From: a virus
Lineage: Duplodnaviria > Caudoviricetes
IMG/VR virus record: IMGVR_UViG_3300029309_000102
Location: 1 to 39,138 of that record
Direction: 5' to 3' (one strand)
Length of the DNA: 39,138 bases
Shown: piece by piece, positions 1-38,392 of the stretch
How positions within the stretch are numbered: the first letter of the stretch is position 1
Layout: every line of letters starts with the position of its first letter
Notes under the pieces: model-generated
Told to the model about the DNA's origin: nothing
Seen by the model: only the letters and a program-made list of their open reading frames with translations
The model's database searches: none
Position numbers and translations under genes: made by a program

Positions 1-1
1 A

Positions 2-313: not shown

Positions 314-335
314 TGCGGCATCATCGCAAAGCGTG

Positions 336-1127
336 ATGGACCCGTTCTCTCAAGCGTTTAACCTGCTGAAAGCAGACCACCTCATCAATACCTACGGTGA
401 GGATTTTGTGCTTGACATACTCGCAAAAGCCATGCCCGGAGACCCGCAAATTGAGGCTTTGCGACAATTTGTTTTGATGAACGACGATACTGAAGACCCT
501 GAACTTCGTGCTGAAGTTGAGGCTGCTTACAAGTACCTTACCGACATCTCATCGGGCCGAGAAGCCCAAATGCCTCACATCCGAGGCTACCAAGCGGGTG
601 GGCGAGGTATGACGACACCAACACCTGCATCCAGCGGCCCTACCCCAGCCTCTTACCCTCGTGCTGAGGAAAAAGAGATGCAAACAAAGAGCCTTGAAAG
701 CGAACTCGCCAACCCCCGCATGAAAACCACCGGCAAACCAATGAATGTGAGAGGCGACGCTGAGGAAAAATTCCACACGATGCAGCGTGCTAACCGAGAC
801 AAGCGAGCAGATGAAATCGCTGAGCAGAATTTGACGCCCGCCATGATGATGGACCAAGGAGGTAGGTCGGGTGGCGATAAAAGCCCCATGGCCTCCGTTA
901 GTTCGCCGTTGAGAGGTGCTCGTGGAGGTACGGTCCCAGTCCGACCACCGAAGGGACGCGACAGTCGTACATCAATGCGTGGTAGTGCATCACCTCGCAA
1001 TCCAATGGACCCACCCCGCCTCGGCTCCGGTATGCCCGACCCCGAGCGACCAAAGCCGTTTGAGTACGATGATGTCAAACTCGCAGGTACCGCGATTTCA
1101 AGAGCCCTCGCCCACCTCGGTTTTTGA
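336..1127 (+). CDS. hypothetical protein with N-terminal P-x3-AF-x2-LK tag; P/G/R-rich disordered C-terminal half (possible internal virion protein)
   Basis: 264-aa ORF (GTG 333 or ATG 336) beginning MDPFSQAFNLLKAD. TATA-like TTTATGA at 307-313 lies about 26-29 nt upstream, consistent with a leaderless transcript. Confidence 0.75.
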   Translation: MDPFSQAFNLLKADHLINTYGEDFVLDILAKAMPGDPQIEALRQFVLMNDDTEDPELRAEVEAAYKYLTDISSGREAQMPHIRGYQAGGRGMTTPTPASSGPTPASYPRAEEKEMQTKSLESELANPRMKTTGKPMNVRGDAEEKFHTMQRANRDKRADEIAEQNLTPAMMMDQGGRSGGDKSPMASVSSPLRGARGGTVPVRPPKGRDSRTSMRGSASPRNPMDPPRLGSGMPDPERPKPFEYDDVKLAGTAISRALAHLGF

Positions 1128-1132
1128 GGTGA
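1126..1132 (+). promoter_or_regulatory. archaeal-type Shine-Dalgarno GAGGTGA (representative; also 5371, 19425, 19748, 29041, 29792, 32743, 34719)
   Basis: The same heptamer recurs 4-6 nt before start codons, usually overlapping the upstream TGA stop (TGAGGTGA). Confidence 0.85.
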
Positions 1133-1136
1133 GTAA

Positions 1137-1856
1137 ATGAGCGAGCCAATCAACCTCGCTTGGCGTTTTCTCAAACAGGATGAAAACCGTCGCTTATCAC
1201 CCCAGCCAAAATACGACTACAGCGAACCTGTCTCATTAGCGATGAATGAACAAATCAAAGGCCCTTGTCAAATGTGCGGTCAAACTGAAGGACCTTACTA
1301 CGATGTCGGGTATCGCAATCCATTTCGTCCTCAACAAGATGCTATTTATACGCTGTGTGAAGCATGCTTGGATAAATTCTCAAACAGCCTTGACACCTAC
1401 GCTCCTTATGCTAAAGACATTGTACTGAGAGCGAAGCGCAACATGAGTCCCGCTGCTCGTCGCCACAAGTTGGAGTACGATACTGAATATGAATCCAGTC
1501 CTGAACGAGTTAAGTACCGAGAAGAACTCAATCGTGAGCGACAGCGCCGAGGCATTTACGGTAAGAAAAATCACATGGATGTTAGTCATACTGAAGGCGG
1601 TAAGTTGACGCTTGAAAGCGAGCATGATAACCGAGCACGGCACTTCAAGGAGCGAGGTACGCTGCGAGAGGTGGCGAAGTCAACGAGAGAAGACTTGGAA
1701 TTACTTCGCAACTTACTGCAAGGCCCTATGGACGAACAGGATAAGAAAATCGGTAGCGCTGTCGTTGGTATGCTTAACGAGCGAGAGCAGATGGAGGGAA
1801 GCGACATCCACGAGTCTCCAAAACACCACGACTTTTTCGGCGGCGTACACTTGTAA
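1137..1856 (+). CDS. Zn-finger plus HNH-like (beta-beta-alpha-Me) domain protein with N-terminal tag
   Basis: SD GAGGTGA 1126-1132. Contains CQMC...CEAC and a C-terminal R..LNR.R...G...MDVSH...DNRAR segment resembling minimal phage HNH nucleases. Starts MSEPINLAWRFLKQ. Confidence 0.6.
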   Translation: MSEPINLAWRFLKQDENRRLSPQPKYDYSEPVSLAMNEQIKGPCQMCGQTEGPYYDVGYRNPFRPQQDAIYTLCEACLDKFSNSLDTYAPYAKDIVLRAKRNMSPAARRHKLEYDTEYESSPERVKYREELNRERQRRGIYGKKNHMDVSHTEGGKLTLESEHDNRARHFKERGTLREVAKSTREDLELLRNLLQGPMDEQDKKIGSAVVGMLNEREQMEGSDIHESPKHHDFFGGVHL

Positions 1857-1861
1857 AGTGT

Positions 1862-1944
1862 AAAGGTTGTATTGTGTATTGTTTTTATTTTTACTATCTT
1901 GAATAAAAGTAAAGACAATACTACCTACTACCTTAACAACCTTT
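1862..1944. repeat. AT-rich long interrupted inverted repeat (hairpin); possible terminator, origin or structured RNA
   Basis: Inner arms 1876-1893 and 1904-1921 pair at 16/18 positions plus 2 G-U wobbles around a 10-nt loop. Outer arms AAAGGTTGT 1862-1870 and ACAACCTTT 1936-1944 are perfect complements, followed by a T run. Confidence 0.75.
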
Positions 1945-1962
1945 GATTTTTGTAGCCGCCAC

Positions 1963-1998
1963 CTTTAAGTTGACCTCAGCAGTGGCACAATCGGTGAA
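1963..1998 (+). promoter_or_regulatory. putative archaeal promoter (TATA-like CTTTAAGT) and SD for the membrane/GTPase operon
   Basis: CTTTAAGT at 1963-1970 in an intergenic gap; GGTGA a few nt before ATG 2002. Confidence 0.45.
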
Positions 1999-2001
1999 AG
2001 C

Positions 2002-2577
2002 ATGGAAGACCAACACGATGCTGAAATTCATTTGATGGGGCTTATTCTTGCGCAAAGCGCTTTAGTGGGCGTTGCTGTAGGTATTTTTGACGCTGAAGTG
2101 TGGCTCAAAAACGATACGCACTGGCTTAACGGATTTACCTACGCCATGGGCGCATTTTTCGTACAAGGTATGGCTTATTACTTCTTCAAAATGTTCTTTG
2201 AACGCACCATGCGTGAGCGAGCCCGCCTTTCGCAAATGGACAGGCAAAGAGTTCACAAGTCCCGTATGATGCAGCAAAATTTTGATTCTCGCCGTGCTGA
2301 AATGGAACTTCGCATGCAAGAAGCGCAACTTGAGCGTGAGTTGCGTTGGATGGAAGCGAACCCCGGTCAAATGCCCCCTTCTTGGGGCGTCCAAGGCGGC
2401 TCTCAATCCATGGTTGGTTTTTACGACCAGCAAGGTGGTGGAGCGGCATCCTTTGACGGTTCACGCATTCCCTCTCATCAAGCACAACCAAAACAACCCC
2501 TATCACTCGGCGTTGAAGAGGAGGCCCCGTTGAAGAAAGACGGTACCCCCGATAAACGCTACAAAAAGGGTGAGTGA
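2002..2577 (+). CDS. membrane protein, two N-terminal TM helices plus coiled coil
   Basis: Hydrophobic LMGLILAQSALVGVAVGIF and FTYAMGAFFVQGMAYYFF segments, then an R/E/Q/M-rich helix. Ends with the basic motif LKKDGTPDKRYKK. Confidence 0.8.
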   Translation: MEDQHDAEIHLMGLILAQSALVGVAVGIFDAEVWLKNDTHWLNGFTYAMGAFFVQGMAYYFFKMFFERTMRERARLSQMDRQRVHKSRMMQQNFDSRRAEMELRMQEAQLERELRWMEANPGQMPPSWGVQGGSQSMVGFYDQQGGGAASFDGSRIPSHQAQPKQPLSLGVEEEAPLKKDGTPDKRYKKGE

Positions 2578-2582
2578 GGTGC

Positions 2583-2837
2583 ATGGGTCGCATTTTCAAG
2601 ACGCCTTCGGACAATGCGACTGAGGAAACACTGCGTGCTATTCACATCGCAAATACGGTTGACACGACCTATGAGCGAGCGTGGGGCTGGGTAAAAACAG
2701 TCCTTGCCTCCTTACTCACCATGCTGATTGTGAGTGGGTTTGAATTTTACAACCCGGACATCAGTATTTACGAAAGTTCAGTGGACTGGTTCGTAGAGAA
2801 GGTTCATGAGTTCCTTCAATGGTTAAAGTGGTGGTAA
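2583..2837 (+). CDS. small single-pass membrane protein
   Basis: ATG 2583 preferred over GTG 2574 because of the GGGTGAG SD spacing. TM segment WVKTVLASLLTMLIVSGF; W-rich amphipathic C-terminus. Confidence 0.75.
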   Translation: MGRIFKTPSDNATEETLRAIHIANTVDTTYERAWGWVKTVLASLLTMLIVSGFEFYNPDISIYESSVDWFVEKVHEFLQWLKWW

Positions 2838-2838
2838 G

Positions 2839-3564
2839 TTGGTTGAACCAGCGGGCACTGCGTTAGTAGGCGCAGCCGTTTGGGGTCAACACATTTTCAA
2901 TTCGTGGCGACCAAGGCGTGTTGGTATTTACGGAGCGCCTATGGTTGGGAAGACTACGCTTGACCGCTACATGACAACACCGGGTGAAATGGAAGCGATT
3001 CCCGAAGAAGAGCGAACTACTCATGCCCGTTTGCTTGGTGTGGTCGGCCCTTACAAAATGCCTAAACCGACTCGTAAGCGTATCAGTTGGAACGGTGAAA
3101 AACGAGTGGTCTATTCAAGCGACATTGGTGGTCAAGAGCGATTTTGGAATTTGTGGGTTGAAGACATGGTAACTCGTAGAGTAGAAGCGGTTGTGTACAT
3201 GTTTGACGAAAGAGCGTTCAAAGGAGGGGATGAGGGACTACAGCAGATTGCTGGTTTCCGATACCTCGTTGACAGACTCATCAATCGCGATTATCGTTAT
3301 CGTTCATTGATGTCTCGCATTCGTGGTCGTAGGTACCATCCTCGTGTGATAATGCTCGTTGCGAACAAGGCAGACCGCTTCTTTGACGAGAGTGCTTCCA
3401 AGTTGTGGCACGATGGTCGGATAGGTGAGCATAAGGTGTTTGACCCGTTTCGTGACGACCTTATCCGTCTGCAAAAAGCAGGCATACCGACCAAACGCTC
3501 ATTCATGGCAACGCGCATCGGTTGGAATGTTGAAAAGACCATGCTGGACCTTTTGACCTCTTAA
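2839..3564 (+). CDS. Ras/Arf-superfamily small GTPase
   Basis: G1 GAPMVGKTT, candidate G2 ERTT, G3 DIGGQERF, G4 VANKAD, G5-like FMAT. TTG start; hydrophobic N-terminal segment GTALVGAAVWGQHIF. Confidence 0.88.
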   Translation: MVEPAGTALVGAAVWGQHIFNSWRPRRVGIYGAPMVGKTTLDRYMTTPGEMEAIPEEERTTHARLLGVVGPYKMPKPTRKRISWNGEKRVVYSSDIGGQERFWNLWVEDMVTRRVEAVVYMFDERAFKGGDEGLQQIAGFRYLVDRLINRDYRYRSLMSRIRGRRYHPRVIMLVANKADRFFDESASKLWHDGRIGEHKVFDPFRDDLIRLQKAGIPTKRSFMATRIGWNVEKTMLDLLTS

Positions 3565-3611
3565 GCCACCTCAGCAGAACCCTTTTACATGCTTCTTCCC
3601 TGCGTGAGTGC

Positions 3612-3815
3612 ATGGGGAGAAAGGCTACGGTCACCACGCTGCAATCAGCGGGTAAGCAAAACGGTAGTTTGCGGACCACTCTCCCAAAGTGGATTGTTGA
3701 CCACTTCGGTTTGAGCGCTGGTAGTAGCATCAACTGGTCGTTCATGGTTCAAAACGGCGAAGTAGCCGTAGTTATGACCCCAATTGAAGGTGAGGAGCAT
3801 GTATCGGCCAGTTAA
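3612..3815 (+). CDS. AbrB/MazE/SpoVT-family DNA-binding protein
   Basis: GSLRTTLPKWIVDHFGLSAGSSINW matches the swapped-hairpin signature. TATA-like CTTTTACA at 3582-3589 fits leaderless spacing. Confidence 0.85.
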   Translation: MGRKATVTTLQSAGKQNGSLRTTLPKWIVDHFGLSAGSSINWSFMVQNGEVAVVMTPIEGEEHVSAS

Positions 3816-4722
3816 TTCCCAAGCCTTGTATCAATCAAATGATGCTCACCTTGCTATGTTGGCTGCACAAGGAAACGAGCAACTGACACAGGCTGCTCTT
3901 AGTGAAATGGTTGCCGCTCAACAAGCGATGCAACAAGCAGGCGAAAGTCAAAACCTTGAGGTTCCTAAAGTCAACTTTTTTCCAAGCAATCACCACGACC
4001 CACGCAAAGCACGCAAGCGAGACATCAAGCAGGCTTACCGACTTCTCAAACCCGCTAAGCGCTCACGACTAAGCCCACTGCGTTGGGCTGGAAACAAGTA
4101 TCGCTACAACAAAGACACTGGTACTTGTGTTGTTGATGGTTGTGATTGTGCTGCTTTGATTAAACACGATAACCTCTACATGCGTATTTGTGATGAAGAC
4201 ACGGGGCGTAGCCTATGGGAGATGTACTGGCAAAATCCTGTGACTGGTCAGCCCGAGGCTTTCATCGCTCAAGATGGTGTGACCAGCGGGCGTAAAATGA
4301 GAGGTACTTACTGCCCTGAACATCTCCATTTGTTTCACTTACTCAAAAAATGGGAGACTGAGGAGGACAAACACCGTGAGATGAACCCAAATCGTCTCAA
4401 AGAGAAGGTGAAGCGAGGTGTTTCAATTGTCACTGTACCAGTCTCTTCGGTGAGAAAGAAAGACCCACAACCAGCCATGCTGCAAAAGTACGAACCGTTC
4501 TTTGCTGAGTTGGAAAGAGACGCCGGTAAGACCAAAGGAATTAGCATACTGAATTACAAAAATCCAGCCACTGGTGTGAATGATGTCACGATGGTTGTTT
4601 TTGATTTGCGGATTTTTCAACAGGAGTTGACAGCCCTTAATACCCCTACTCCTGACTTTCAAACGCTGCTGCAACAAGAACAGCAGAACCTTGATGTTGA
4701 AGGACAACTTGGGCAGGTGTGA
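3799..4722 (+). CDS. hypothetical protein with Q/A-rich N-terminus and probable Zn-binding residues
   Basis: SD GGTGAGG precedes in-frame ATG 3799. Contains CVVDGCDC and YCPEH motifs. Confidence 0.75.
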   Translation: MYRPVNSQALYQSNDAHLAMLAAQGNEQLTQAALSEMVAAQQAMQQAGESQNLEVPKVNFFPSNHHDPRKARKRDIKQAYRLLKPAKRSRLSPLRWAGNKYRYNKDTGTCVVDGCDCAALIKHDNLYMRICDEDTGRSLWEMYWQNPVTGQPEAFIAQDGVTSGRKMRGTYCPEHLHLFHLLKKWETEEDKHREMNPNRLKEKVKRGVSIVTVPVSSVRKKDPQPAMLQKYEPFFAELERDAGKTKGISILNYKNPATGVNDVTMVVFDLRIFQQELTALNTPTPDFQTLLQQEQQNLDVEGQLGQV

Positions 4723-4727
4723 GTCGT

Positions 4728-5372
4728 ATGTTCAATTTTGGTCAACCTCAACAACCTGCCGGTTTGAATTTATCAGTTACTGGTGCTCCTACCGGTCAAG
4801 CAGTACAAGGTTTGGGTCTCGGCGCTCAACCTCAACAGCCCGCTGGTTTCATGGGAGGTTTGGCCGGAGGGATGGGTATGCAACAGCAGTACGGCCAAGC
4901 GCAGCAATTTGCCCAACAACCTATGCTACCACCAAGTGAAATGGAATTGATGAATGCTTTGCTCCAATCACAAAATCCAATTCATCGTTTTATCGCATCA
5001 GGTGGACTTGCATCCCTCATTGACCTCATCGCTACTACAACCAGTCTCACACTGATGAATGTCCTCAAAAACGCCACCTTTGCTATTGACGATGATGAAG
5101 GCGGTATGAAATTGGACATTGGTGCTCTACCCGACAATCTCAAAACGCTCAGTGCTGAAAATGTTAGCGTGTTGTTAAACCAAATCGTAAGTAGCAGCCA
5201 ACAAACACTTCAACAGGCTGACATGCAACGACAACAAATTCTCGCCATGGCTCAACAATCCATGATGGGCGGCGCTCTTCAAGCGGCATTGGCAGATGAA
5301 GGGACAATGGAAAAAATCGGAGGCGGAATAGGTAGCGTGGCTCGCTCCTTCATGGGTCTGCCAAAACAATGA
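4728..5372 (+). CDS. Q/G-rich low-complexity protein with glycine-rich hydrophobic helices
   Basis: ATG 4728 follows AGGTGTGA. MFNFGQPQQPAG...AQPQQPAG repeats; GFMGGLAGGMG and IGGGIGSVARSFMG segments. Confidence 0.75.
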   Translation: MFNFGQPQQPAGLNLSVTGAPTGQAVQGLGLGAQPQQPAGFMGGLAGGMGMQQQYGQAQQFAQQPMLPPSEMELMNALLQSQNPIHRFIASGGLASLIDLIATTTSLTLMNVLKNATFAIDDDEGGMKLDIGALPDNLKTLSAENVSVLLNQIVSSSQQTLQQADMQRQQILAMAQQSMMGGALQAALADEGTMEKIGGGIGSVARSFMGLPKQ

Positions 5373-5381
5373 GGTGAAAAG

Positions 5382-5630
5382 ATGCAAGGGTCGTTTACAG
5401 AAGGTACTTATCAAGGTTTGAGTGATAGCAGTCTGAGTGTTTTTGCACCTACTCGTTCAGTCATTACCGACATGATAATGGTTCAGTTGTTAAGCATCAT
5501 TTTAGCACTCGTGCTATTGATGATTTTCAAGGGTAATCAGTTGGACACAAACGATATTTCACTCTTCTTGGTTGGTATCTTCGGCTCCAGTATTTTGCTT
5601 GGTAGCATTTACTCCCGACTCACAAGTTGA
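5382..5630 (+). CDS. small two-TM membrane protein (holin-sized)
   Basis: SD GAGGTGA 5371-5377. TM segments MIMVQLLSIILALVLLMIF and ISLFLVGIFGSSILLGSIY. Confidence 0.78.
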   Translation: MQGSFTEGTYQGLSDSSLSVFAPTRSVITDMIMVQLLSIILALVLLMIFKGNQLDTNDISLFLVGIFGSSILLGSIYSRLTS

Positions 5631-5852
5631 CCACTTACCCTTTGGACAATCACTTGAAGGTGCCATCGCTTTGAGTGGCATGAAGCACCCACACATTCTA
5701 CACATGTGGAGTTTCTTGATGAAAAGCACGCAGTCTCGGCAAGTATTGAGACGATTCATGTAGGTTCCTTTAGTCACGCGATTGCCCGTAATAATGTCTT
5801 TTGAAGCGACAACGATTTGAGGTGGTTTCACTCTCTCCCACCGTCGGAACAT
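5559..5852 (-). CDS. Cys-rich Zn-binding protein (DUF6171-like)
   Basis: RL..CxxC...CxxCGCF...K......CP.GKW pattern seen in a widespread phage family. SD GGTGGTGA lies 4 nt before the ATG on the minus strand. It is the only convincing minus-strand gene. Confidence 0.75.
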   Translation of the reverse strand: MFRRWERVKPPQIVVASKDIITGNRVTKGTYMNRLNTCRDCVLFIKKLHMCRMCGCFMPLKAMAPSSDCPKGKWSTCESGVNATKQNTGAEDTNQEE

Positions 5853-5912
5853 GATTTCACCACCAGCCTCATCAAGAAAAGGATTATGTTCAATGCCGCT
5901 TTAGAAGCGCAC

Positions 5913-6599
5913 ATGGGAGGAGCGGAGCGTGTTTCTAAACGGTCCTGCGCCTTCTGTCAACATCCCAGTCGTGACGAGTTGGAACAGGGCTTGTTGTTAG
6001 GTGAAATTTCATCCACTCAGTTGGATAAAGACATGGGTTGGAGGCACAATACCAGCGACCGGCATTTCCGTAACCACATGGGTCAATTCCACATGGCTTC
6101 TAATCCGCAGTGCAAGGTTTGTTCACATCCACAACGGGCTGAATTTGAACAACGATACTTCGCTGACGGTAGCGAATCCGAACTCATCGCTGTTGAATTG
6201 GGTATCGCTGAGTCATCGGTGTATCACCACATGAAACATCATTTCCAACCGTTAGTACAAAAAGCCGCAGTTGCTGAAGTCAGCATGGTCGTGGGAAGGG
6301 AATTGGATGTACTCAAGTCAAATGTTGAACTCCTCAATCATAAGTTGTCCGAATTGCTCAATGAGGGCAGTGTACACGAAGATGGGTTCGTGCGAGATGC
6401 AGTGTCCTTGCACAAAGAAGTGAGAGAGTCAATTAAGGACATCAGGAAAATGCAAGACGACTGGGGGCCTACGAGTGAAAACGGTGAAATCCATAATACC
6501 ATCAACATTCTCAAAGTTGAACTCGGTAAGGAGAGTCCTGATTCTTGGGCTCGTATTCGTGAGAAACTGATAGGGCATGTAGAGGAGGGCTTCGTATGA
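5913..6599 (+). CDS. tandem CxxC-HP-x-R...H-x3-H Zn-finger/HTH protein with C-terminal coiled coil; candidate terminase small subunit
   Basis: Two repeats (CAFCQHPSR...RHFRNH and CKVCSHPQR...HHMKHH) followed by helical oligomerisation-like segments. Start uncertain (ATG 5886 or 5913). The 5817 start overlaps the divergent gene. Confidence 0.55.
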   Translation: MGGAERVSKRSCAFCQHPSRDELEQGLLLGEISSTQLDKDMGWRHNTSDRHFRNHMGQFHMASNPQCKVCSHPQRAEFEQRYFADGSESELIAVELGIAESSVYHHMKHHFQPLVQKAAVAEVSMVVGRELDVLKSNVELLNHKLSELLNEGSVHEDGFVRDAVSLHKEVRESIKDIRKMQDDWGPTSENGEIHNTINILKVELGKESPDSWARIREKLIGHVEEGFV

Positions 6600-6997
6600 T
6601 GGCTGTTCCCGTACCCGATTTGCTTCAAGTCACTCATCCCGCTTATTCGTTAATGACGCAAAAAGAAGTTACTACGGAGGTTATTCCTTCGTTACTTGAT
6701 TTTGCCGAGCGAGTTGTTGAACGATTTGAGTTCTACGGTAATCTTGCCGTAGCCCCTCAAGACCTCATGATTATGCTAAAGAACGGGTTTGAAAAGTTGT
6801 GTAAGAGCGACGACCCACAGGAGGTTTTACCCATTCGTGATTTCCTCCCCCGTTTGTTAGAAGAGTTTGAAATGACCATGGGCAGTATGTCTCGCGCATT
6901 CCCTTCAAACCCACGAGTGAGTAAATTCTACACATCATTATCTGATATGCTCTATGTTGCTTACGACGAATTAAGCGGGGGGCCACTCTATGACTGA
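6596..6997 (+). CDS. hypothetical protein
   Basis: 133-aa ORF coupled by an ATGA overlap, with a GAGGAGGG SD. Confidence 0.75.
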   Translation: MMAVPVPDLLQVTHPAYSLMTQKEVTTEVIPSLLDFAERVVERFEFYGNLAVAPQDLMIMLKNGFEKLCKSDDPQEVLPIRDFLPRLLEEFEMTMGSMSRAFPSNPRVSKFYTSLSDMLYVAYDELSGGPLYD

Positions 6998-8201
6998 GGG
7001 TATGATGGGTCGCGGTTCGGACACCCGAATGTACGCTCCTCGTTCGGAGTCCTCGCACATGTTCCGTGCAAATTACGAGGATGAGCGTACACCCACAGGG
7101 CATGATGACCCTTCTGATAAAGAAAAACGCATGGATAAGCGTCAAGCCAAAAAAGAGCGTGAAGAGGAAAAAGAGCGCTCATTACGCCATATCAAAGTAA
7201 GGGCGCATCACATGGGTCTTAACAAACCCGAAGAGGATGATGGCGACGAGGGAGACAAGAAATTCAAACCGCGTGATTCGCCAAGTGAACCTACCATACC
7301 CTCGGGGGCCGGTGGTTTCCTCACCAGCCTTGGTGCTCAAGCCAAAGGCCCCGGCGCTGCTGGAGGTGAAATGATTCAAATGTCCGAGCCGATGGAGCAT
7401 GCTTGGAGTTCGTTGCTTAAGCAATCCCGAGCGCAAAAGAAGCGTCGCAAGAAGGAACAGTACGCCAAGTGGCGTCCATCTACCGGTCAGTTCAAGCGCC
7501 CTCGTGGCGGCTACAGCGGTCGTAGTGGTACCTCCGCCCGAGCAAAAAACCTATCTCGTCACCTCCCCATGGGTAAGAAGACGGGGCTGATGCGACCACA
7601 CTTGGCTGTTGAGATGTCTCACCGTGGTATTGCCAGCAAGCAGCCAATGTCCAAAGACCCACAAGCCTATGGCGCTTATCGTGGCTATCAAGAAGCGCAG
7701 AAAATTCAAGGTGGTGTGCCCAGCAGACTATCACGCCGTGCTCCGTTCGGTCAACTCAACGCACCCAGTGGTCGTGTGTTTGGTATTCGTGCGCCCAAAC
7801 CTCGTTTGAAACCTCACCGAGCACCACCGATTCAACCGCCCCGAATGCGTACACCTCACCTCAACCGACCAAAAATGCCCGGTATGGTGACGATGAGTGA
7901 GGACGAAGTGCAAGGCAGCGACCTGCTTAAGCGGGACATGAACCATTACTTGCTGGCTGAACTACGCACATCGCTCAAAGAACTCCAAGACCTGATGCGT
8001 CGCAAGAAGGACAAGGACCGCAAGAGCAAGGGTATGGGCACACCCGACACGGCTGGTGGTGCTTCTACGCTACCCAACTATCCCGGCAACAATCCAAAGC
8101 AGACAACAAACCCAACAGGGGCCACTGAAAGTCAAGAAGATGCTCGTCAATACGGACTTGACCCACGAGCACTTGCTGGTAGAGGGAGTGGACGAGCATG
8201 A
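6990..8201 (+). CDS. basic, K/R/P-rich largely disordered protein (possible DNA-condensing internal protein)
   Basis: 403-aa ORF with internal tag MSEPMEHAWSSLLKQ followed by a very basic region. Confidence 0.75.
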   Translation: MTEGMMGRGSDTRMYAPRSESSHMFRANYEDERTPTGHDDPSDKEKRMDKRQAKKEREEEKERSLRHIKVRAHHMGLNKPEEDDGDEGDKKFKPRDSPSEPTIPSGAGGFLTSLGAQAKGPGAAGGEMIQMSEPMEHAWSSLLKQSRAQKKRRKKEQYAKWRPSTGQFKRPRGGYSGRSGTSARAKNLSRHLPMGKKTGLMRPHLAVEMSHRGIASKQPMSKDPQAYGAYRGYQEAQKIQGGVPSRLSRRAPFGQLNAPSGRVFGIRAPKPRLKPHRAPPIQPPRMRTPHLNRPKMPGMVTMSEDEVQGSDLLKRDMNHYLLAELRTSLKELQDLMRRKKDKDRKSKGMGTPDTAGGASTLPNYPGNNPKQTTNPTGATESQEDARQYGLDPRALAGRGSGRA

Positions 8202-10576
8202 GTATTCTTGTCCGCAAAAGCGGTTTTCTGTTATTGAAAGGACACGGGGTTTATGCTTATTACGGCGGTCAAGCCCATTTGTTAACAGCGCCTCCACCCG
8301 AGGCCATCAACCCCGACAGTGAGATGGAGGATGTTCCAGCGTTCGCTCACTACGGTAATTTCAATCAACATCCAACAGTCGGCCATCTTACAGTAGGAAA
8401 TCTGATTCCGGGTAAAATTTTACGACGAGGTGGTAAGTACGGGGAGACGGTTTACCGTGATGAGGGTGGTAGAGACCATCACCATGGGATTGATGGTGTT
8501 CTTCATCACATAGGGAAGAGATTGGAAGAAATGGGGGCACTTGGTCTTCGCCATCCTCGTTTGGGTGAACTCACACCGGAGGCTCTCGTTCAACGAGCGA
8601 TTAACGAATACAACCGCACGCACAATGACAAAACAGGTGCGCACAAATTACCCGATGTTAACAGCATAGAGTGGCGTAAATTACACGCTACTCCTTGGAG
8701 TAAAAAAGATGCAGACAGCCCTATTCGTTCTGTGGATGGTATTTTACCTACGCTAAACACAAACATGCGTCCCCATCCACGACTTGGTACTTTCATTGAA
8801 TCCTATTCAATTCCATTTTGGAAAGAGTTGAACGAAATTCTTGTGAATCAACTCAACATGAAAGAATCTCAAAATTTGGAGTGGTTAACGCAACCTCATA
8901 TTTCAATTGATGACTTACACCCAACTGGTCGCCGCCTTAAGGGGCGTGGCGATGGTATGGTTGGCCCCGATGGGCGACTTCCTAAAGCCCACTTGCGAGA
9001 CACACCCGAAGGCATCAGCCATGACCAGTTGCTCGGGCCTATTCATTCGTGGGAAGTGCTGCATCACACTCCTGACATGTTTCACTACAAGTTGAGTCGC
9101 CAGCAGTCAACTCCGTTTAACACCAAGAAAAGCGCAGTAGGGCACATCAAACTCGCTCTTCAACGCTTAGAGCAACAGGGTTTACCTGTTCCTGACACAC
9201 CTGTACCTATCAATGTAGAGGCTACGAGCGGTGGAACGAATTATCAGATGGTCCCACTTAGCACAGCAGTTCGCTCCGACGCTATGCTTGGTAATTTGAT
9301 AGAAGAGTTGAGCACGACCCAATCGTTGAACTTCTTGTTTGGTAGAATCATGTCTCGGGGTAAGCAAAAGGAAGGCCCCGGTGCAAGGATGATGGCTCAT
9401 TTACTTGAGCAGTATGGTGGAGACCCTGATGACCCTGAGAATAAAGGTCGCACCTTTAGCACGCTGGACACGCATGTCACCGGTGCTGCTCACATACCTA
9501 TTGACCGGCAGTACTTTTCGGGTGAAAAGTCACCACGCCACCCTACGAAGGATGGTAGCACACATCACACGGCTGCTAAACTTTATGCCAAGGCTCACCT
9601 TGCTGAGTACGCAGACGCTGATAGCCTACGAGATTATCACCCGGAGGACTTCAAAGTAGCAGAAGATTTGGGTATTGACCGTGAAAGCATAAAAGGTGTT
9701 GACCAACGAAGAGCAGGCGCACAAGCAATCGCTGACATGCTCGCTACAGCGTTTGGCGGAACCGTTCAAAAACCACTGATTGAAGAAGAAGCATTACCTT
9801 CAAACCCTCTTAGCACTGGAATGCTTTTGGGTTATCCCGAAGAGGGATTGGCTCTACCTGAATACCTATCACACATCTCCGCTGTTGCTCTCCCTCCACC
9901 AAAGAGGCAAACGGCTGAGCCTCCTTTGAGAGAGATACCCGCTGCTTCGCCCGCTGATGTCGCCCCAGCGGGACGAGAGGTTCTTCATTCGCCTCCTCCA
10001 GCAGCCGCTGTTCCAGCAGCACCTCGGGCGGCACCTGCTCCACGAGTGGCTGTTCGCCAACCATTCCTTCCCGGCATTGGTACGGCGATGATGCAGCCTC
10101 AAACGCCGGAAGTTGTACAAATGCGCCAAGGCGTAGGCAACCTCCCGCCCGAACAGTTGCGTCAGTTTATTGGCGCTACAACTTATGGTCCGCGACCGGG
10201 CGAAGGCCCCGAGTTGACCGAAGCCGAACAGCGATTTCAACAAACTTTTGGCGACCCACGCCAGCGTCTTCTTACACAGTACATGAAGAGTCAAAGTGAT
10301 GCACTACCCGAGGCTGACCGTTTGATGAAAGCCATGGAGGACATGCAACGAGACGCTGCGAAAACTGACTCAAGCATCATGAAGCATGCCCTGACTCGTC
10401 CTGTGAACATCGCTGATGAAATGGGTGTTCGCCACCTTGCTAAGCAACTCAACCTCACACCTCTTGATGTACGCTCTATCGCTCAGCAGTTGGGCGACTG
10501 GGAACGCATCGCCAAGCGCCTCAATGTAAAAAGCGACATTGTAAAGGTCATTAAAGTCAGCATCGGGGGTGTTTGA
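8198..10576 (+). CDS. large hypothetical protein, P/A-rich linker and C-terminal HTH-like helices
   Basis: 792-aa ORF with ATGA overlap. C-terminal LAKQLNLTPLDV...IAKRLNV resembles tandem HTH motifs. Confidence 0.8.
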   Translation: MSILVRKSGFLLLKGHGVYAYYGGQAHLLTAPPPEAINPDSEMEDVPAFAHYGNFNQHPTVGHLTVGNLIPGKILRRGGKYGETVYRDEGGRDHHHGIDGVLHHIGKRLEEMGALGLRHPRLGELTPEALVQRAINEYNRTHNDKTGAHKLPDVNSIEWRKLHATPWSKKDADSPIRSVDGILPTLNTNMRPHPRLGTFIESYSIPFWKELNEILVNQLNMKESQNLEWLTQPHISIDDLHPTGRRLKGRGDGMVGPDGRLPKAHLRDTPEGISHDQLLGPIHSWEVLHHTPDMFHYKLSRQQSTPFNTKKSAVGHIKLALQRLEQQGLPVPDTPVPINVEATSGGTNYQMVPLSTAVRSDAMLGNLIEELSTTQSLNFLFGRIMSRGKQKEGPGARMMAHLLEQYGGDPDDPENKGRTFSTLDTHVTGAAHIPIDRQYFSGEKSPRHPTKDGSTHHTAAKLYAKAHLAEYADADSLRDYHPEDFKVAEDLGIDRESIKGVDQRRAGAQAIADMLATAFGGTVQKPLIEEEALPSNPLSTGMLLGYPEEGLALPEYLSHISAVALPPPKRQTAEPPLREIPAASPADVAPAGREVLHSPPPAAAVPAAPRAAPAPRVAVRQPFLPGIGTAMMQPQTPEVVQMRQGVGNLPPEQLRQFIGATTYGPRPGEGPELTEAEQRFQQTFGDPRQRLLTQYMKSQSDALPEADRLMKAMEDMQRDAAKTDSSIMKHALTRPVNIADEMGVRHLAKQLNLTPLDVRSIAQQLGDWERIAKRLNVKSDIVKVIKVSIGGV

Positions 10577-11710
10577 TTGAAACCAGTCGGTGTGATTCGT
10601 AAGAACATGGGACCGCTTTCACTTCAAGTTCCCTTGGGTGAGTCGGGTTTCTATTTCAGTCCATTAAGTGGAATGGGAACCGCTGAACCTACTGCTAATC
10701 CCAATGTGCGTTCAGCAAGAGACTTTAGCACTGCTTCAATTAGCGCTGAAAATGCAAGAGAAAAACTGAGGCAAATGGCTGCGGACAGGCAGGCAGCGTT
10801 CAATAGAGACCCTGATTCAAGTTTTGGCGGCGATGCCGCTGAAATAGCAAGACAGCAAGAGGAAAGAGCGCTACAGCGTGTTCTTGAGGCTGGTGAGGCT
10901 CAAAATCAGCAAGAGCGTTACATATCGGAGTCGCTTGATAGACAAGGAATGCGTGGACCCGTTGGTGTGATGGGGCCCATAACAGGAGAGGCTGATAGGG
11001 CGGCTGCTCTTGCTGAAAGAGCGGGTAGATTTGGGATGGCTGGTAGGCTTGCTGGCACTGGAGTTGCTGGTGCTTTGGGAGGTCTTACTGGTTTGATAGC
11101 GCTACAAAACGCTGGTGCTCAAGGTCAAGACGCCATCAGTGGACTCGGCTCGGCTGGATTGAGAGGAATGGGTACTTTCAGCACTGCTAACCCCGCACTT
11201 GAAAGAGCAGGTGGCTACATAGGCTCACGAATAGGTGACTCCGGTATTGGTATGACAGGAGAGGCGTTTAGAGCAGGCCCAGCGAGTCAAATGGCTGGTA
11301 GGGCCAGTGGAGCAAGTCAAATGGCTGGGCGTGGAGGGCGAGTGGGTGTTGTTACCGTTCCCAAATTACATAGAACTCCCGGTGTTGCTGATAGCATAGC
11401 GCCTCCAGCGCCTACTCCTCCTACCGTTGCTGAACCTACTTCCACCAATGATGATGGTGGAATGAGTGAAAAGGTTGCTGGTTATGTTGGCGTTGCTACT
11501 AAAAATCCCGTTAAAGAAACAGAAAAAGCAACAAACGCTACCGATACCATGGGCATAAATCAATCAATGGTTTCACCGGAGAAGAAGTACGCATCTGATA
11601 AAGACATGGAACGATTCATCACCATGGCTGGACCGACTGGTGAAAAGATGCCGAGAGGGACTGGGCGCGATGGCAGTATCACGGCGAGGGACTTGCAGGA
11701 AGCGGAGTGA
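10577..11710 (+). CDS. Gly/Ala-rich protein with glycine-zipper hydrophobic segment (possible ejection/membrane-interacting protein)
   Basis: 377 aa, TTG start after GGGGGTG. Segment GMAGRLAGTGVAGALGGLTGLIAL; ASQMAGR occurs twice (DNA repeat 11281-11298 and 11311-11328). Confidence 0.72.
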   Translation: MKPVGVIRKNMGPLSLQVPLGESGFYFSPLSGMGTAEPTANPNVRSARDFSTASISAENAREKLRQMAADRQAAFNRDPDSSFGGDAAEIARQQEERALQRVLEAGEAQNQQERYISESLDRQGMRGPVGVMGPITGEADRAAALAERAGRFGMAGRLAGTGVAGALGGLTGLIALQNAGAQGQDAISGLGSAGLRGMGTFSTANPALERAGGYIGSRIGDSGIGMTGEAFRAGPASQMAGRASGASQMAGRGGRVGVVTVPKLHRTPGVADSIAPPAPTPPTVAEPTSTNDDGGMSEKVAGYVGVATKNPVKETEKATNATDTMGINQSMVSPEKKYASDKDMERFITMAGPTGEKMPRGTGRDGSITARDLQEAE

Positions 11711-11716
11711 TGAAAA

Positions 11717-13201
11717 ATGGACAAAAAATCTGCTGAGATGGCTGAACTGGTCATTGAGATGGATAAGAAAATGTCCGCTCGCTCGTTCAAGTACTTCTTT
11801 GAAACCGTGCTTGGCTTTGACTATGCTGACCACCACGGGCTGTGGGACAAGGGTTTGAGCGAGAACCGCTATTACTGCGTCAAAGCATCTCGTGACCACG
11901 GCAAATCTGTGTTCTTCATGTCTTACGCCTTGTGGATAGCGGCGTTTAATCCCGGTACACACATCATGATTTTCTCACACTCGTTGGAGCAGACCCTTGA
12001 GCACATGCGTTTCATTCGTGGCAACATTGACGCTGCACCTTGTCTCAAGGAGTTGAAGCCCGGTGGCATTCCTTGGCGAAAAACCTACTTTGAGTTCACC
12101 AACGGTAGCCGTATTATGGCTAAGTCGGTTGGTGGTGGTACTCGTGGTTTCCACCCGGATGTTGTGTTGTGTGACGACATCCTGTGGGGTACGACTGGCA
12201 GTGAGTTGCAGCGAGCAGCCGATTGGTTCTACGGTGTTCTTCTTCCTGTTCTTCACCACACGGGTCGCCTCATGATGGTCGGTACGCCGTTTTCGTACAA
12301 TGACTTGTACGCTCAACTTGAGCAGACTGAAACATTCCAAGTAGAAACATACCCGGCAATCAACCGTGAGGGCGAAGCGCTGTGGCCTCAGCGCTGGAAC
12401 CTTGAAGCGCTTGACCAGCGGCGTATGTCCATGCCTGCTATTCAGTTCACTCGTGAGTACCTGTGTGAACCGATTCACGATGTTGCGAGTATGTTTCCAA
12501 TGGCGCTGCTTGAAAAAGCCCGTGACCACGAACTTAAACTGTTGGACTACGCTGAGTACGAGTACGATGAAGAAGGCGAAAAAGCCGGTGTGTTTGGACA
12601 GCACTTCATCGGTTGGGACACAGCAATTGCTTCGGACAAGAACGCTGACTACACAGCCATGACGGTACTGCGTACGCTGCCTGATGAGGATGTGAAGCAA
12701 ATCGTAGGTATTGTACACGAGCAAGGCATGGGTTCAGCAGCGCAGAAGCGGCAAATCATCATCCTCAACAACCGATTCCAACCCGACCTCATAGAGTTGG
12801 AGGGCAACAACTTCCAGCGAATGTTTGCTATGGAACTGAAAGACATCCGCCAAGACATCCCCATCCGTACATTCATGACGACAAAGACCCGTAAGGAGAG
12901 TCTGTTTATGTCCCTCTTGATGGCGTTTGAACAGGGTCAAATCAAAACACCCTACGGTGATGAACGCTCCAAGCGCTTTACACACAAGTTAGAGGAAGAA
13001 CTCACTCGCTTCGGCATGCAAAAGAACGGGCGCTTGGAAAGCGTCGGTGTTCATGACGACTTGGCGATGTCGCTTGCTTTGGCAAACTGGGGAACCAAAG
13101 AGTTCCGAGGTAGCGTTGTCATGCTTGACGACTACATGCCGGGCTTTGACGACTGGCTGACAGGGAAACCAAGAAACAAGAATAGGTGGATTGTACCATG
13201 A
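11717..13201 (+). CDS. terL: terminase large subunit
   Basis: Walker A ASRDHGKS, RGFHPD followed by Walker B VVLCDD, coupling motif VGTP, RNase H-like nuclease motifs IGWDTA...DYTA and HDDLAMSLALA. Confidence 0.96.
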   Translation: MDKKSAEMAELVIEMDKKMSARSFKYFFETVLGFDYADHHGLWDKGLSENRYYCVKASRDHGKSVFFMSYALWIAAFNPGTHIMIFSHSLEQTLEHMRFIRGNIDAAPCLKELKPGGIPWRKTYFEFTNGSRIMAKSVGGGTRGFHPDVVLCDDILWGTTGSELQRAADWFYGVLLPVLHHTGRLMMVGTPFSYNDLYAQLEQTETFQVETYPAINREGEALWPQRWNLEALDQRRMSMPAIQFTREYLCEPIHDVASMFPMALLEKARDHELKLLDYAEYEYDEEGEKAGVFGQHFIGWDTAIASDKNADYTAMTVLRTLPDEDVKQIVGIVHEQGMGSAAQKRQIIILNNRFQPDLIELEGNNFQRMFAMELKDIRQDIPIRTFMTTKTRKESLFMSLLMAFEQGQIKTPYGDERSKRFTHKLEEELTRFGMQKNGRLESVGVHDDLAMSLALANWGTKEFRGSVVMLDDYMPGFDDWLTGKPRNKNRWIVP

Positions 13202-14112
13202 AGGAACAGAAAGTAGGAAAGAAACCACACGGAATGGTGTTGGTCATTTCAGTAGGCAAACCGGGTGGAAAGAAGCCTGAGCGAGAGGCCGACCCGGACA
13301 CCAAAAAGAAAGCCAGTGAAAAGCAACTGCTTAATGAAGCGGCAACGCTTCGTGAAATGGGTGATAAAAGAACAGCCCGTCGTTTTTCTGATGTTGCTGG
13401 TCTTATGTCGCGTGGCCCAGCGCTTCGTGAATCAAGTATTCAACGGCTTGGTACAAAGGCCGCTCAAGCACTTGACCCCGACGAAGAAGGTCAAGATGAC
13501 TATGCTCGCCTTTTGTTTAATGAAAGTACGCGCGGTGCTGACTATCAAGACATGAAACTCAATCCAAAATTTTACCCTCCCGAAATGCGCCGTGAAGTTA
13601 TGAAACTCATTTCTCAAATGGCACGGCAAGGCACTCAAGCGGACACCATGGATGAAAAAGCACGCTTGGCTTTGGATGAATTGCGTGAAGAAGACCCCAC
13701 TCAATTTTTTGCTGACCAAGACTTCGTACAGCGCTCTTATGAAAATTTGGAAGCCTTGGATGCGATGATGAAAGGTGAGCCTGTGAACTTTTGTACTTGT
13801 TGTTCACCTACTGACATCGCTTGGGCTGTCGCCAAGGCAAAGAAAAAATCCAAGCCGTTCCACGGCTACAACCCAAAGCGCCATCACAAGAAAGGTGGAT
13901 TGAATGCAGCGGGTCGTGCTAAGTTCAAGCGTGAGACTGGAGCAAATCTCAAGCCCCCTGTCACCAAAAAACCGAGTAAATTGAAACCCGGTAGTAAGTC
14001 CGCTAAGCGTCGGAAATCGTTTTGTGCTCGCATGGGAGGAATGAAAGGTCCGACCAGCAAGAAGGGTAAGTTGACGCCCAAAGGTGCAGCATTGAAGAGG
14101 TGGAATTGTTGA
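13198..14112 (+). CDS. protein with C-terminal basic phage domain (DUF6321-like, RRKSFCARM)
   Basis: ATG 13198 overlaps the terL stop (ATGA) with SD AGGTGGA. GGLNAAGRAK...KRRKSFCARMGG...ALKRWNC is preceded by the tag SPTDIAWAVAKA. Confidence 0.75.
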   Translation: MKEQKVGKKPHGMVLVISVGKPGGKKPEREADPDTKKKASEKQLLNEAATLREMGDKRTARRFSDVAGLMSRGPALRESSIQRLGTKAAQALDPDEEGQDDYARLLFNESTRGADYQDMKLNPKFYPPEMRREVMKLISQMARQGTQADTMDEKARLALDELREEDPTQFFADQDFVQRSYENLEALDAMMKGEPVNFCTCCSPTDIAWAVAKAKKKSKPFHGYNPKRHHKKGGLNAAGRAKFKRETGANLKPPVTKKPSKLKPGSKSAKRRKSFCARMGGMKGPTSKKGKLTPKGAALKRWNC

Positions 14113-14282
14113 ATAGTCCGTTTGAAATTTGTTTTGATGAATTGAAAAAGAAGTTGTGTCCCGAAGGGAAAGCAGCAGCGAAAAGAAAATTTAAGGTGTA
14201 CCCTTCAGCGTACGCCAACGGTTGGGCAGTGCAGTATTGTCGTGGCAAATTCCGTAAGAAAAAAGGAGGTAAGAAAAAATGA
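14109..14282 (+). CDS. small basic protein with VYPSAYAN motif (N-terminal half of a DUF5872-like family)
   Basis: TTG 14109 overlaps the previous stop, with SD GAGGTGG. Contains KRKFKVYPSAYANGWAVQYC. Confidence 0.7.
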   Translation: MNSPFEICFDELKKKLCPEGKAAAKRKFKVYPSAYANGWAVQYCRGKFRKKKGGKKK

Positions 14283-14455
14283 AATTGAAACGCGATTCTT
14301 GTTGTTGCGGGGGCAGCAAAAAAACACCGTGCGTGTGTATGCTTAAAGGCGTCATGCAGTGTTCAGCAACAGCCCCTAAATGCCCTTGCTATGCTCTACT
14401 TGACAAACAAAAAGAGAAGGCGAAAAAGGTAAGTAAAATGGTAGGCGTGTATTGA
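14279..14455 (+). CDS. 58-aa Cys-rich mini-protein (not in the ORF track)
   Basis: MKLKRDSCCCGGSKKTPCVCMLKGVMQCSATAPKCPCYALLDKQKEKAKKVSKMVGVY. SD GGAGGT upstream; ATGA overlap at the start and TGATG at the end exactly fill the gap. Confidence 0.75.
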   Translation: MKLKRDSCCCGGSKKTPCVCMLKGVMQCSATAPKCPCYALLDKQKEKAKKVSKMVGVY

Positions 14456-15732
14456 TGCTCTCACCTTTGGATGTCGCTTGGCTTGTGATAAAAGAGGAGC
14501 CTGTGACCCCAGTGAACCCAGCAGTGAACGCAGGTATGATGCGATATGTTTACGAACACCCAAACGACCCCACTCAATACTTGAAAATTCCAAGGTCCAC
14601 TGCAAATCCCTACTTTAAAGAAATCGCCTCAAATGCTGCGTTGAGTCAAATGGGTGAACAGGTGGAACCTGAACGCCCAGTTCTCACTAACACTGGCCTG
14701 CATGGGAGGACTGGTTCAATTGAGCAAGTAATTAAACCTGCAACTACACAAAGAATAGTACCGGGTGGCCCTGTTCAAGAGAGCGTAAAACGCACCTTTT
14801 CCATAGCCTTACCGCCGCCGCACGGCGGTGAGCCGCGTACAGAAGACGAAAAAGAGGCTTCAAGAAGGCGTCAACTCATACTGGATGCTCAGACTTCTGC
14901 TTTCGGTGAAGACACATTCCTCGGAAACATGATTCGTGACCTTCACACGAAGAACATAGGTTTTGACATGCCTCCCTCTTTGCTTGAAGAAAAAATAAGT
15001 GATAAGACTACTGACCCGAAAGAATTGGGTCAACACTTGATGGCTTTTGACCCTATGGCTCAGCATTTAACCGATAAAGAAGTTGACAAATTGGTATCTG
15101 AATTGTTGGAAGTTTATGACAAATATCCTGAAAAATTGGAGAGGTATGCTGAACTGATGCAAGATAGGTCTCAGTTTGACCCCCTTATGGACGCTCTTTA
15201 CCATCAACCTAACCCGCTACCAGCCTCACTACGAGGGCGGGAGGGAGCAGTCCGGGCGAGGAATGAAGCAGGCGTTAGACGAGATGTTGGGAGAGATTAT
15301 AATGATTACATAAAGGAGTTGAACAATTTGAAAAGGGCTATGCAATTTATCAAAGACCCTCAACAAACAACGCTCAATGAATTTTTTAAACCAATCCCTC
15401 GCGACCATCCTGACAGGCGCCGGTTTGGCGATGTCAAATTTGATGCTCAAGTAGATACAGATACAATCATTAGAGAAGCCGTAAGAAGAAGTAGGGCAAA
15501 GCAAGCAGAAGCAGCGTTAGATGGACTGAGAGAAGATGAAAAAAATACAAGCCGTTCCACGGCTCTTAGAGCGTTTTACAGTGACATAATGAATGACATG
15601 TACAGACAGGGCTATGATGCTGAAAATGCCATCCTTCGTAATGACATGGGTGCTAACATACCATTTATTCGTAATCTTCTTGGTAGGGAACAAGAGCGGC
15701 AGGTTTTGGATGCTATGAGGAGTGGTGTTTGA
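14455..15732 (+). CDS. protein kinase-like fold protein (YrbL/atypical kinase-like) with N-terminal tag
   Basis: N-lobe AGMMRYVYEHPNDPTQYLKIP, helix-C Glu in FKEI, catalytic-loop-like RDLHTKNIG, metal-binding-like MAFDP. Starts MLSPLDVAWLVIKE. Confidence 0.6.
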   Translation: MLSPLDVAWLVIKEEPVTPVNPAVNAGMMRYVYEHPNDPTQYLKIPRSTANPYFKEIASNAALSQMGEQVEPERPVLTNTGLHGRTGSIEQVIKPATTQRIVPGGPVQESVKRTFSIALPPPHGGEPRTEDEKEASRRRQLILDAQTSAFGEDTFLGNMIRDLHTKNIGFDMPPSLLEEKISDKTTDPKELGQHLMAFDPMAQHLTDKEVDKLVSELLEVYDKYPEKLERYAELMQDRSQFDPLMDALYHQPNPLPASLRGREGAVRARNEAGVRRDVGRDYNDYIKELNNLKRAMQFIKDPQQTTLNEFFKPIPRDHPDRRRFGDVKFDAQVDTDTIIREAVRRSRAKQAEAALDGLREDEKNTSRSTALRAFYSDIMNDMYRQGYDAENAILRNDMGANIPFIRNLLGREQERQVLDAMRSGV

Positions 15733-16049: not shown

Positions 16050-16071
16050 AGGTATCAATTGAGGTCAAATT

Positions 16072-19037: not shown

Positions 19038-19081
19038 TCTCTTTTAGGGCGGCATCACTACGAACGACAAGAGGCGAGAAC

Positions 19082-19426: not shown

Positions 19427-19435
19427 GGTGATTGA

Positions 19436-38383: not shown

Positions 38384-38392
38384 GGTGTGGCT

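What the first reader, a model, noticed from the sequence alone, without database searches (positions are those of the whole stretch)
336..14500. Shared 'P-x3-A-[WF]-x2-[LIA]-K' tag on unrelated proteins: candidate capsid-addressing and protease-release system for injected cargo
Seen: six otherwise unrelated ORFs carry the same short helix. They are MDPFSQAFNLLKA (336), MSEPINLAWRFLKQ (1137), MSEPMEHAWSSLLKQ (7380, internal), SPTDIAWAVAKA (~13805, internal), MNSPFEICFDELKK (14109) and MLSPLDVAWLVIKE (14455). The tag ends in hydrophobic-hydrophobic-K, like ELLK-ADAP near the MCP N-terminus, LSLLK-GS in the protease, ALLK-ADG just before the ligase-like domain and LIVK-N before the WFKEKW domain. 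Established: T4 internal proteins use an N-terminal capsid-targeting sequence removed by the prohead protease. Inference: this archaeal virus uses a modular tag to load diverse payloads (kinase-like, HNH-like, basic DNA-binding proteins) into the head and release them by cleavage after Lys.
Basis: partly seen in the sequence, partly recalled or inferred. Interest (0 to 1): 0.85.

Follow-up and report, generated by a model that had tools for sequence, protein, structure and literature searches.

The report
Capsid address tag of ocean archaeal viruses
Six unrelated genes beside the head-building genes of this ocean archaeal virus carry the same 12-residue peptide ending in lysine, found on over a hundred fast-changing protein families in its relatives, which likely loads them into the virus head and likely marks where the head protease cuts them free, though neither step has been measured.

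Summary
The tag is real. The window is a magrovirus (Poseidoniales virus) head module. Consensus: M-x-[AP]-F-[DE]-x-A-W-x-h-L-K. It heads 43 of 494 structural-strand genes against 2 of 524 on the other strand in 10 related genomes (about 2 expected). It sits on about 120 cargo families, is conserved as protein, not DNA, and is missing from 384 host genes. Lys is never swapped for Arg. Hydrophobic-x-Lys sites are conserved in scaffold proteins and at the capsid propeptide boundary in 93 of 121 distant capsid proteins. Two window cargo modules start bare in small podovirus-type phages and follow Glu sites in T4-like cyanophages; one such cyanophage protein was found in virions. Best reading: a T4-CTS-like capsid address with a Lys cut site. 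Loading, cutting and injection are inferred; no complex could be predicted. This scan has noted the same tag on other magrovirus DNA at least eight times; my nine paper searches found no description in print.

The parts
2..313 (+). 5'-cut ORF; in the near-identical record G001 its start carries the tag
   Evidence: 99.95% identity over 9,500 nt; 285-aa ORF, tag 32 bits
336..371 (+). N-terminal tag on a 263-aa orphan protein (336-1127)
1137..1175 (+). N-terminal tag on a 239-aa protein (1137-1856) with a Cys-pair segment and a phrog_6437 module
7380..7421 (+). Internal tag (one residue longer) in conserved 403-aa ORF 6990-8201; repeated up to four times in orthologues; a GGAGGTG site lies just upstream
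8198..8239 (+). Second, weaker N-terminal type (run of hydrophobic residues then Lys) on conserved 792-aa ORF 8198-10576
   Evidence: 23 of 502 structural-strand versus 3 of 528 other genes, about 4-5 expected; few families
11717..13201 (+). Terminase large subunit (context)
13804..13836 (+). Internal tag directly before the basic DUF6321 module of ORF 13198-14112
14109..14147 (+). N-terminal tag before a small basic module (phrog_27331), ORF 14109-14282
14455..14493 (+). N-terminal tag on a 425-aa protein with a predicted protein-kinase-like domain (14455-15732)
15759..15776 (+). Second-type leader ending in Lys before the DUF5872 module (ORF 15729-16049)
17304..19037 (+). Portal protein (context)
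19082..20481 (+). Three small conserved head-module genes rich in h-x-K-small sites; likely scaffold/core proteins; 19436-19762 ends like the protease-scaffold tail
24451..24465 (+). h-h-K site before the ligase-like domain of the 1821-aa ORF 20488-25953
25989..27398 (+). Prohead protease (Peptidase_S78, residues about 18-172, invariant His65 and Ser123) fused to a helical scaffold; 13 h-x-K-small sites; tag-like segments at 26472-26498 and 27060-27086; tail at 27345-27365
27435..28607 (+). Major capsid protein; predicted maturation site after Lys34 (27522-27536)

Best explanation
A 12-residue helix-forming peptide ending in Lys is shared by many unrelated, fast-turning-over magrovirus genes on the structural strand; it likely docks these proteins onto the assembling prohead core, the virus's S78 protease likely cuts after the Lys during maturation, and some freed cargo would enter the host with the DNA. 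Shown: the motif, its strand bias, protein-level conservation, strict Lys, cargo diversity, absence from host genes sampled, a matching Lys site pattern in scaffold and capsid proteins. Inferred: head location (about 0.7), cutting after Lys (about 0.65), injection and host take-over by ADP-ribosyltransferase-fold and kinase-fold cargo (about 0.5). The receptor (capsid propeptide, scaffold or protease) is unknown.
For: Strand bias 43/494 vs 2/524. Tagged genes have homologues in a median 0 of 9 other genomes, untagged structural-strand genes 8 of 9, as for T4 internal proteins (PMC3012670, PMC9026906, passages). Cargo is soluble (1 of 121 families with a TM-like stretch vs 12 of 101 untagged unassigned genes) and small (median 161 aa, n=118). 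After the h-D-x-A-W-x-h-h core, 124 of 139 are Lys, none Arg. Conserved Lys columns in h-x-K-small context: 18 of 49 in protease-scaffold and three small head genes, 10 of 157 in other-strand families, 7 of 52 in tail genes; Arg 1 of 25, Glu 0 of 43. Lys at the propeptide boundary in 93 of 121 distant MCPs whose leaders vary widely in length; HK97 is cut at K103/S104 (PMC10275583, passage). Three-way module test: the phrog_27331 and DUF6321 modules begin at or near the start Met in small podovirus-type phages, follow h-x-E sites in T4-like cyanophages (DUF6321: 7 of 8 shown by the anchor used), and follow tag-Lys here. The cyanophage protein holding both (T4-GC119) was detected in purified virions, 13 counts (PMC3037559 Table S8). 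Haloviruses HVTV-1 and HCTV-1 place Lys before repeated modules of head-region proteins. One recurrent cargo folds like Tpt1/KptA NAD-using transferases, with the tag modelled as a separate helix; T4 Alt is a packaged ADP-ribosyltransferase.
Against: No proteomics, binding or cleavage data for any magrovirus. The residue after the tag Lys is varied (A 33, M 20, E 14, S 13, Q 13 of 124), looser than the MCP site. Some tags sit at the very C-terminus with nothing to release (4 cases). T4-GC119 was not detected in Syn9 virions, and table headers were lost in the PDF, so the S-SM1 column is inferred from gene size 1488 nt. Pairwise similarity of the 14109 module to GC119 is weak (E 0.005-0.03) and none was shown for the DUF5872 module. 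Tag versus protease-scaffold profile comparison is not significant (E 0.09). Enrichment in tail families is not zero, and some conserved Lys sites lie inside the protease fold. The lineage-wide MCP Lys site exists in relatives with no tag, so it shows protease specificity, not tag function. Genomes compared are related.
Confidence: 0.62

Rival explanations
1. The peptide is only an extended substrate site for the head protease (an activation leader), with no separate loading role.
For: Strict Lys; the junction after the protease domain reads P-E-x-x-[FY]-x-[IL]-L-K in both clades sampled and matches the tag at five positions; many internal tags are flanked by a second h-x-K site.
Against: MCP and scaffold sites need only h-x-K, so F, A and W upstream are not needed for cutting; C-terminal tags release nothing; in T4 targeting and cutting map to different CTS positions.
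Confidence: 0.15
2. The peptide is a docking helix for another late target (outer capsid, tail, host membrane or assembly site, chaperonin or host protein) and is not cut.
For: Tandem internal and C-terminal copies suit multivalent binding; varied residue after Lys; many tagged genes lie 10 kb or more from the head genes, near genome ends.
Against: Does not explain Lys never becoming Arg, the Lys falling exactly at module starts, or Glu sites before the same modules in T4-like phages; motif absent from host genes sampled.
Confidence: 0.17
3. The similarity comes from DNA: a recombination cassette end, repeat or translation leader that happens to encode this peptide.
For: Tagged genes come in tandem arrays with near-identical starts within one genome; Phe codon biased to TTT, 25 of 31.
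Against: Codon identity at shared residues 0.41 against 0.37 expected, the same within and between genomes; upstream DNA not shared; internal in-frame copies; no Rfam match in window 1-20000.
Confidence: 0.04
4. Chance resemblance among amphipathic helices.
For: Short motif; two of six window cases deviate.
Confidence: 0.01

Closest known systems
Capsid targeting sequence (CTS) of phage T4 internal proteins IPI-III and Alt, removed by gp21 (PMC9026906, PMC3012670, PMC5694885; passages read)
   Same: Short leader of about 10-12 residues shared by unrelated, poorly conserved, small soluble proteins; ends in the residue favoured at scaffold and capsid sites; virus encodes a protease of the gp21/assemblin fold; cargo includes an ADP-ribosyltransferase fold.
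   Different: Archaeal virus; ends in Lys, not Glu; about 120 cargo families and up to 17 tagged genes in one genome against a handful in T4; also internal, tandem and C-terminal copies; cargo mostly not basic; no experiment.
HK97-type prohead protease (Peptidase_S78) maturation, cut at K103/S104 (PMC10275583, passage read)
   Same: Same Pfam family; Lys-small site at the end of the MCP leader.
   Different: 33-residue MCP leader, scaffold fused behind the protease, and a portable tag on accessory genes, which the passages read do not describe for HK97.
T4-GC119 virion protein of T4-like cyanophages (PMC3037559, passages and supplement 1 parts 3-4 read)
   Same: Carries DUF6321 (E about 1e-7) and, weakly, the 14109 module; modules separated by protease-type sites.
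   Different: Glu sites in one polyprotein, against separate genes or fusions with a Trp-containing Lys tag.
Propeptides of ejection proteins of giant phages SPN3US and phiKZ (PMC5694885, passages read)
   Same: Many head proteins cut by the prohead protease; leaders thought to target them.
   Different: Those leaders are long (often over 100 residues), Glu-cut and mostly not shared; here one short shared peptide.
Head-region multidomain proteins of haloviruses HVTV-1 and HCTV-1 (Druskaviridae)
   Same: Related MCP (33-35%); helical linkers ending in Lys before repeated modules; h-x-K sites in protease and MCP (9 vs 2.7 and 11 vs 2.9 expected).
   Different: No Trp-containing tag found in the 15 head-region proteins scored (best 9.7 bits).

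Membership tests
T4 CTS | Short N-terminal peptide shared by unrelated, variable proteins | tested here: met
T4 CTS | Ends in Glu, the gp21 cut residue | tested here: not met
   Lys in 124 of 139; T4 cuts after Glu
T4 CTS | Confined to the N-terminus | tested here: not met
   113 N-terminal, 70 internal hits above 15 bits, 4 C-terminal cases
T4 CTS | Virus encodes a gp21/assemblin-fold prohead protease | tested here: met
   Pfam S78 E 1.5e-9; weak Foldseek matches to herpesvirus assemblins and T4 gp21, E 3e-3 to 1.4e-2, low-confidence model
T4 CTS | Peptide is enough to load a foreign protein into heads | not testable with these tools
   needs assembly assay
T4 CTS | Peptide removed during maturation; cargo in virions and ejected | not testable with these tools
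   indirect only:
HK97-type S78 maturation | Lys-small site ending the MCP leader | tested here: met
   invariant L32-L33-K34 in 38 MCPs; Lys in 93 of 121 distant MCPs; cutting itself not shown
Scaffold-tail mimic (earlier scan notes) | Tag matches, and varies with, the scaffold C-terminal tail | tested here: not met
   Tail changes between clades while the tag does not; similar tail in tagless relatives; no profile match. The shorter tag form of those notes was not sampled.
Scaffold internal-helix mimic | Tag matches scaffold residues 358-366 | tested here: inconclusive
   Class pattern met in 11 of 11 near-clade proteins, 0 in 108,946 other-strand residues, but pattern set after seeing it; Lys lost in distant clade; relaxed pattern has 5-6% chance per 300 aa
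Signal peptide or membrane anchor | Long hydrophobic stretch | tested here: not met
   12-residue amphipathic, acidic at position -7; cargo lacks TM stretches
DNA cassette or recombination site | Conservation at nucleotide level | tested here: not met

The most novel reading that the evidence does not exclude
Magroviruses run a plug-in injection arsenal: any gene that gains this 12-residue label is packed into the head, tandem labels turn fusion proteins into polyproteins diced by the head protease, and a genome-specific set of 5-17 effectors (ADP-ribosyltransferase-fold, kinase-fold, small basic modules, mostly unknown folds) is delivered into Poseidoniales cells at infection. It would be a T4-CTS-like system in archaeal viruses, apparently arisen separately, and far larger in cargo range.
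Probability: 0.45. Interest if true: 0.82.

Novelty: new variant of a known kind. Interest (0 to 1): 0.62.

Why it matters
Magroviruses are abundant predators of uncultured marine archaea and most of their genes have no known function. If the tag is a capsid address, it labels, from sequence alone, over a hundred protein families as candidate injected host-takeover or anti-defence factors, gives a handle on Poseidoniales defences, predicts exact neo-N-termini for ocean virion proteomics, and offers a short Lys-cleavable peptide for loading cargo into HK97-fold shells. It would also show that the T4 solution to variable internal proteins recurs in archaeal viruses.

Tried and rejected
Complex prediction of tag with MCP and protease domain: the queue was full and no job ran, so there is no verdict. 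Profile comparison of tag with protease-scaffold (E 0.09) and MCP (E 0.076): not significant. PDB sequence search with the protease domain: only chance hits. Pfam on 119 cargo representatives: one hit above its curated cut-off (DUF6321), the rest weak Zn-ribbon or HTH hits or none; PHROGs on 49 of them: 3 with hits, all unknown function. Scaffold-tail mimicry: not supported for this tag form. DNA-level cassette: rejected. Rfam, tandem repeats and promoter scan gave nothing relevant. Search for HVTV-1 virion processing data found no usable paper. Three distant non-magrovirus relatives (G066-G068, simple gene caller) show no tag. HNH identity of ORF 1137 not confirmed.
Full report
Setting. The window is a 39,138-base virus record with terminase, portal, Peptidase_S78 protease, major capsid protein and tape-measure genes on one strand. 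Among annotated phage records the MCP matches only haloviruses of Druskaviridae and methanogen-associated viruses, 11 records, the pattern reported for magroviruses (PMC5434244, part 1 of 4 read). A contig with a 62% identical MCP lies inside a Poseidoniales single-cell genome. Structural and replication modules of such viruses run in opposite directions (PMC12999244, whole text).

Observation. A 99.95% identical record adds five tagged genes upstream. I called genes with my own script in 10 related genomes of 85-107 kb. A loose pattern occurs in the first 30 residues of 43 of 494 structural-strand genes and 2 of 524 others; shuffles give 2.4 and 2.2. Among 2,745 unique proteins, 91 were tagged, in 51 families; I dropped 7 families as false or doubtful, leaving 44. 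Consensus M-x-[AP]-F-[DE]-x-A-W-x-[LVFI]-L-K, Lys usually at residue 12 or 13.

Range. In 185,579 prokaryote genomes it hit 8 places, near my hand estimate of about 4 by chance; the one Poseidoniales hit is the viral contig. In 384 genes from about a third of that host genome, none scored above 12 bits and one matched the loose pattern. A more distant clade (MCP about 60%, protease about 36%) uses the same tag, with 17 flagged genes in G065:C2. Three non-magrovirus relatives lack it.

Level of conservation. Codon identity at shared residues is 0.41 against 0.37 expected, within and between genomes alike: the constraint is on the peptide. After the tag core 124 of 139 cases have Lys and none Arg. 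Tags also occur internally, up to four per protein, and four times at C-termini.

Cargo. 254 unique cargos form 121 single-linkage families, 77 singletons; many are cut at locus edges, one is a chance hit, and remote relatives are split, so 121 is an upper estimate. Tagged genes (46) have homologues in a median 0 of 9 other genomes, untagged structural-strand genes (448) in 8. One of 121 has a TM-like stretch; 4 are basic, 51 acidic. Pfam and PHROGs name almost none. ORF 14455 has a kinase-like domain. A recurrent cargo with a Y-H-G-T start, not in the window, models well (pLDDT 79) and matches Tpt1/KptA transferases (E 1.5e-4); the Atlas gives PARP and Arr leads.

Protease specificity. The protease gene encodes an S78 domain with invariant His65 and Ser123 and a helical scaffold; fold matches to assemblins and T4 gp21 are weak. 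h-x-K-small sites are 3-7 times over expectation in the protease-scaffold and three small head genes, 1.3 times on the other strand, but also 2.7-3.4 times in two tail-region families. Counting aligned columns instead of sequences: 18 of 49, against 10 of 157 other-strand (p 8e-7) and 7 of 52 tail (p 0.01). In 121 of 150 distant MCP representatives long enough to align, 93 have Lys and 14 Arg at window position 34, after leaders of very different length. HK97 is cut at K103/S104; HFTV1 MCP lacks residues 1-100 (bioRxiv 2024.12.09.627619, passage).

Module test. The DUF6321 module occurs in 234 phage records. In small podovirus-type phages it and the 14109 and DUF5872 modules start at or near Met; that these phages lack a head protease is recalled for T7-like phages, not tested. 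In T4-like cyanophages DUF6321 and the 14109-like module follow h-x-E sites; in magroviruses they follow tag-Lys. T4-GC119, which bears them, is listed as detected in virions in one proteome (13 counts), not detected in Syn9 (PMC3037559; column identity inferred). Haloviruses put Lys before repeated head-protein modules without the Trp tag.

Receptor. Unknown. Two protease-scaffold segments resemble the tag: the domain junction (162-170, kept in both clades) and a helix start (358-366, Lys lost in the distant clade); neither is significant by profile. The scaffold tail, proposed by earlier scan notes, changes while the tag stays and is present in tagless viruses. No complex prediction could be run.

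Comparison. It works most like the T4 CTS (passages) but fails two membership features (Glu end, N-terminal only), so it is an analogue. Lys cutting fits HK97-type proteases. Paper searches and term searches in two magrovirus papers (PMC11706807, PMC10160649; passages) showed no description of the tag. I did not see Zhou 2023, Nishimura 2017 or the original halovirus virion papers, nor supplements of the magrovirus papers, which may bear on novelty. Earlier notes of this scan report the same or a sister tag on other genomes; they are not independent evidence.

Verdict. Real, widespread, apparently unpublished; new variant of a known kind; capsid address plus Lys cut site at 0.62; interest 0.62.

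Noticed in passing
window 2002-5630: Conserved cassette of a divergent small-GTPase-like gene (2839-3564; P-loop and NKxD-like motifs seen by eye, no Pfam hit) with small membrane proteins and an AbrB-like gene, in 9 of 10 related genomes; untagged. Earlier scan notes cover it.
   Followed up: no
window 20488-25953: 1821-aa gene between small head genes and protease with a weak ATP-dependent ligase-like domain (E 0.002) flanked by conserved h-x-K sites; may be a packaged, processed polyprotein.
   Followed up: partly
window 16072-17304: Conserved gene before the portal with a LAGLIDADG-like C-terminal part and excess h-x-K sites.
   Followed up: no
window 8198-8239, 10577-10606, 15729-15776: Second leader type: short hydrophobic run ending in Lys on several conserved head-region genes (23 of 502 vs 3 of 528).
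   Followed up: partly
window 7362-7382: A GGAGGTG ribosome-binding-like site precedes the internal tag, so an internal start is possible; but only 13 of 66 internal tags have Met at the usual distance.
   Followed up: partly
window 19436-19762 and 27345-27398: The small head gene and the protease-scaffold end in the same Trp-containing helix, likely the capsid-binding tail; a similar tail is in distant tagless viruses.
   Followed up: partly
G065:C2 (L383, L386-L391): A 106-kb magrovirus contig inside a Poseidoniales single-cell genome, a direct host link, with 17 tag-flagged genes.
   Followed up: partly
G001:35800-36627, G002:4660-5505, G003:13622-14497: An untagged gene starting like HMG-CoA lyase family enzymes (label recalled, not searched) sits inside the tagged-gene array.
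   Followed up: no
G002:54001-69168, G003:54002-70648: Giant ORFs of over 5,000 residues follow the tail genes; the window's last ORF (38387-39136) is the start of one.
   Followed up: no
L442-L445 (G066): About eight dispersed genes share a near-identical N-terminal segment on both strands, probably a family of homing endonucleases, unrelated to the tag.
   Followed up: no
L219:3726-5213 (S-SM1 gene 115): T4-like cyanophage virion protein built of small basic Cys-containing modules joined by Glu sites; the modules recur beside scaffold and capsid genes of many marine phages and have no known function.
   Followed up: partly
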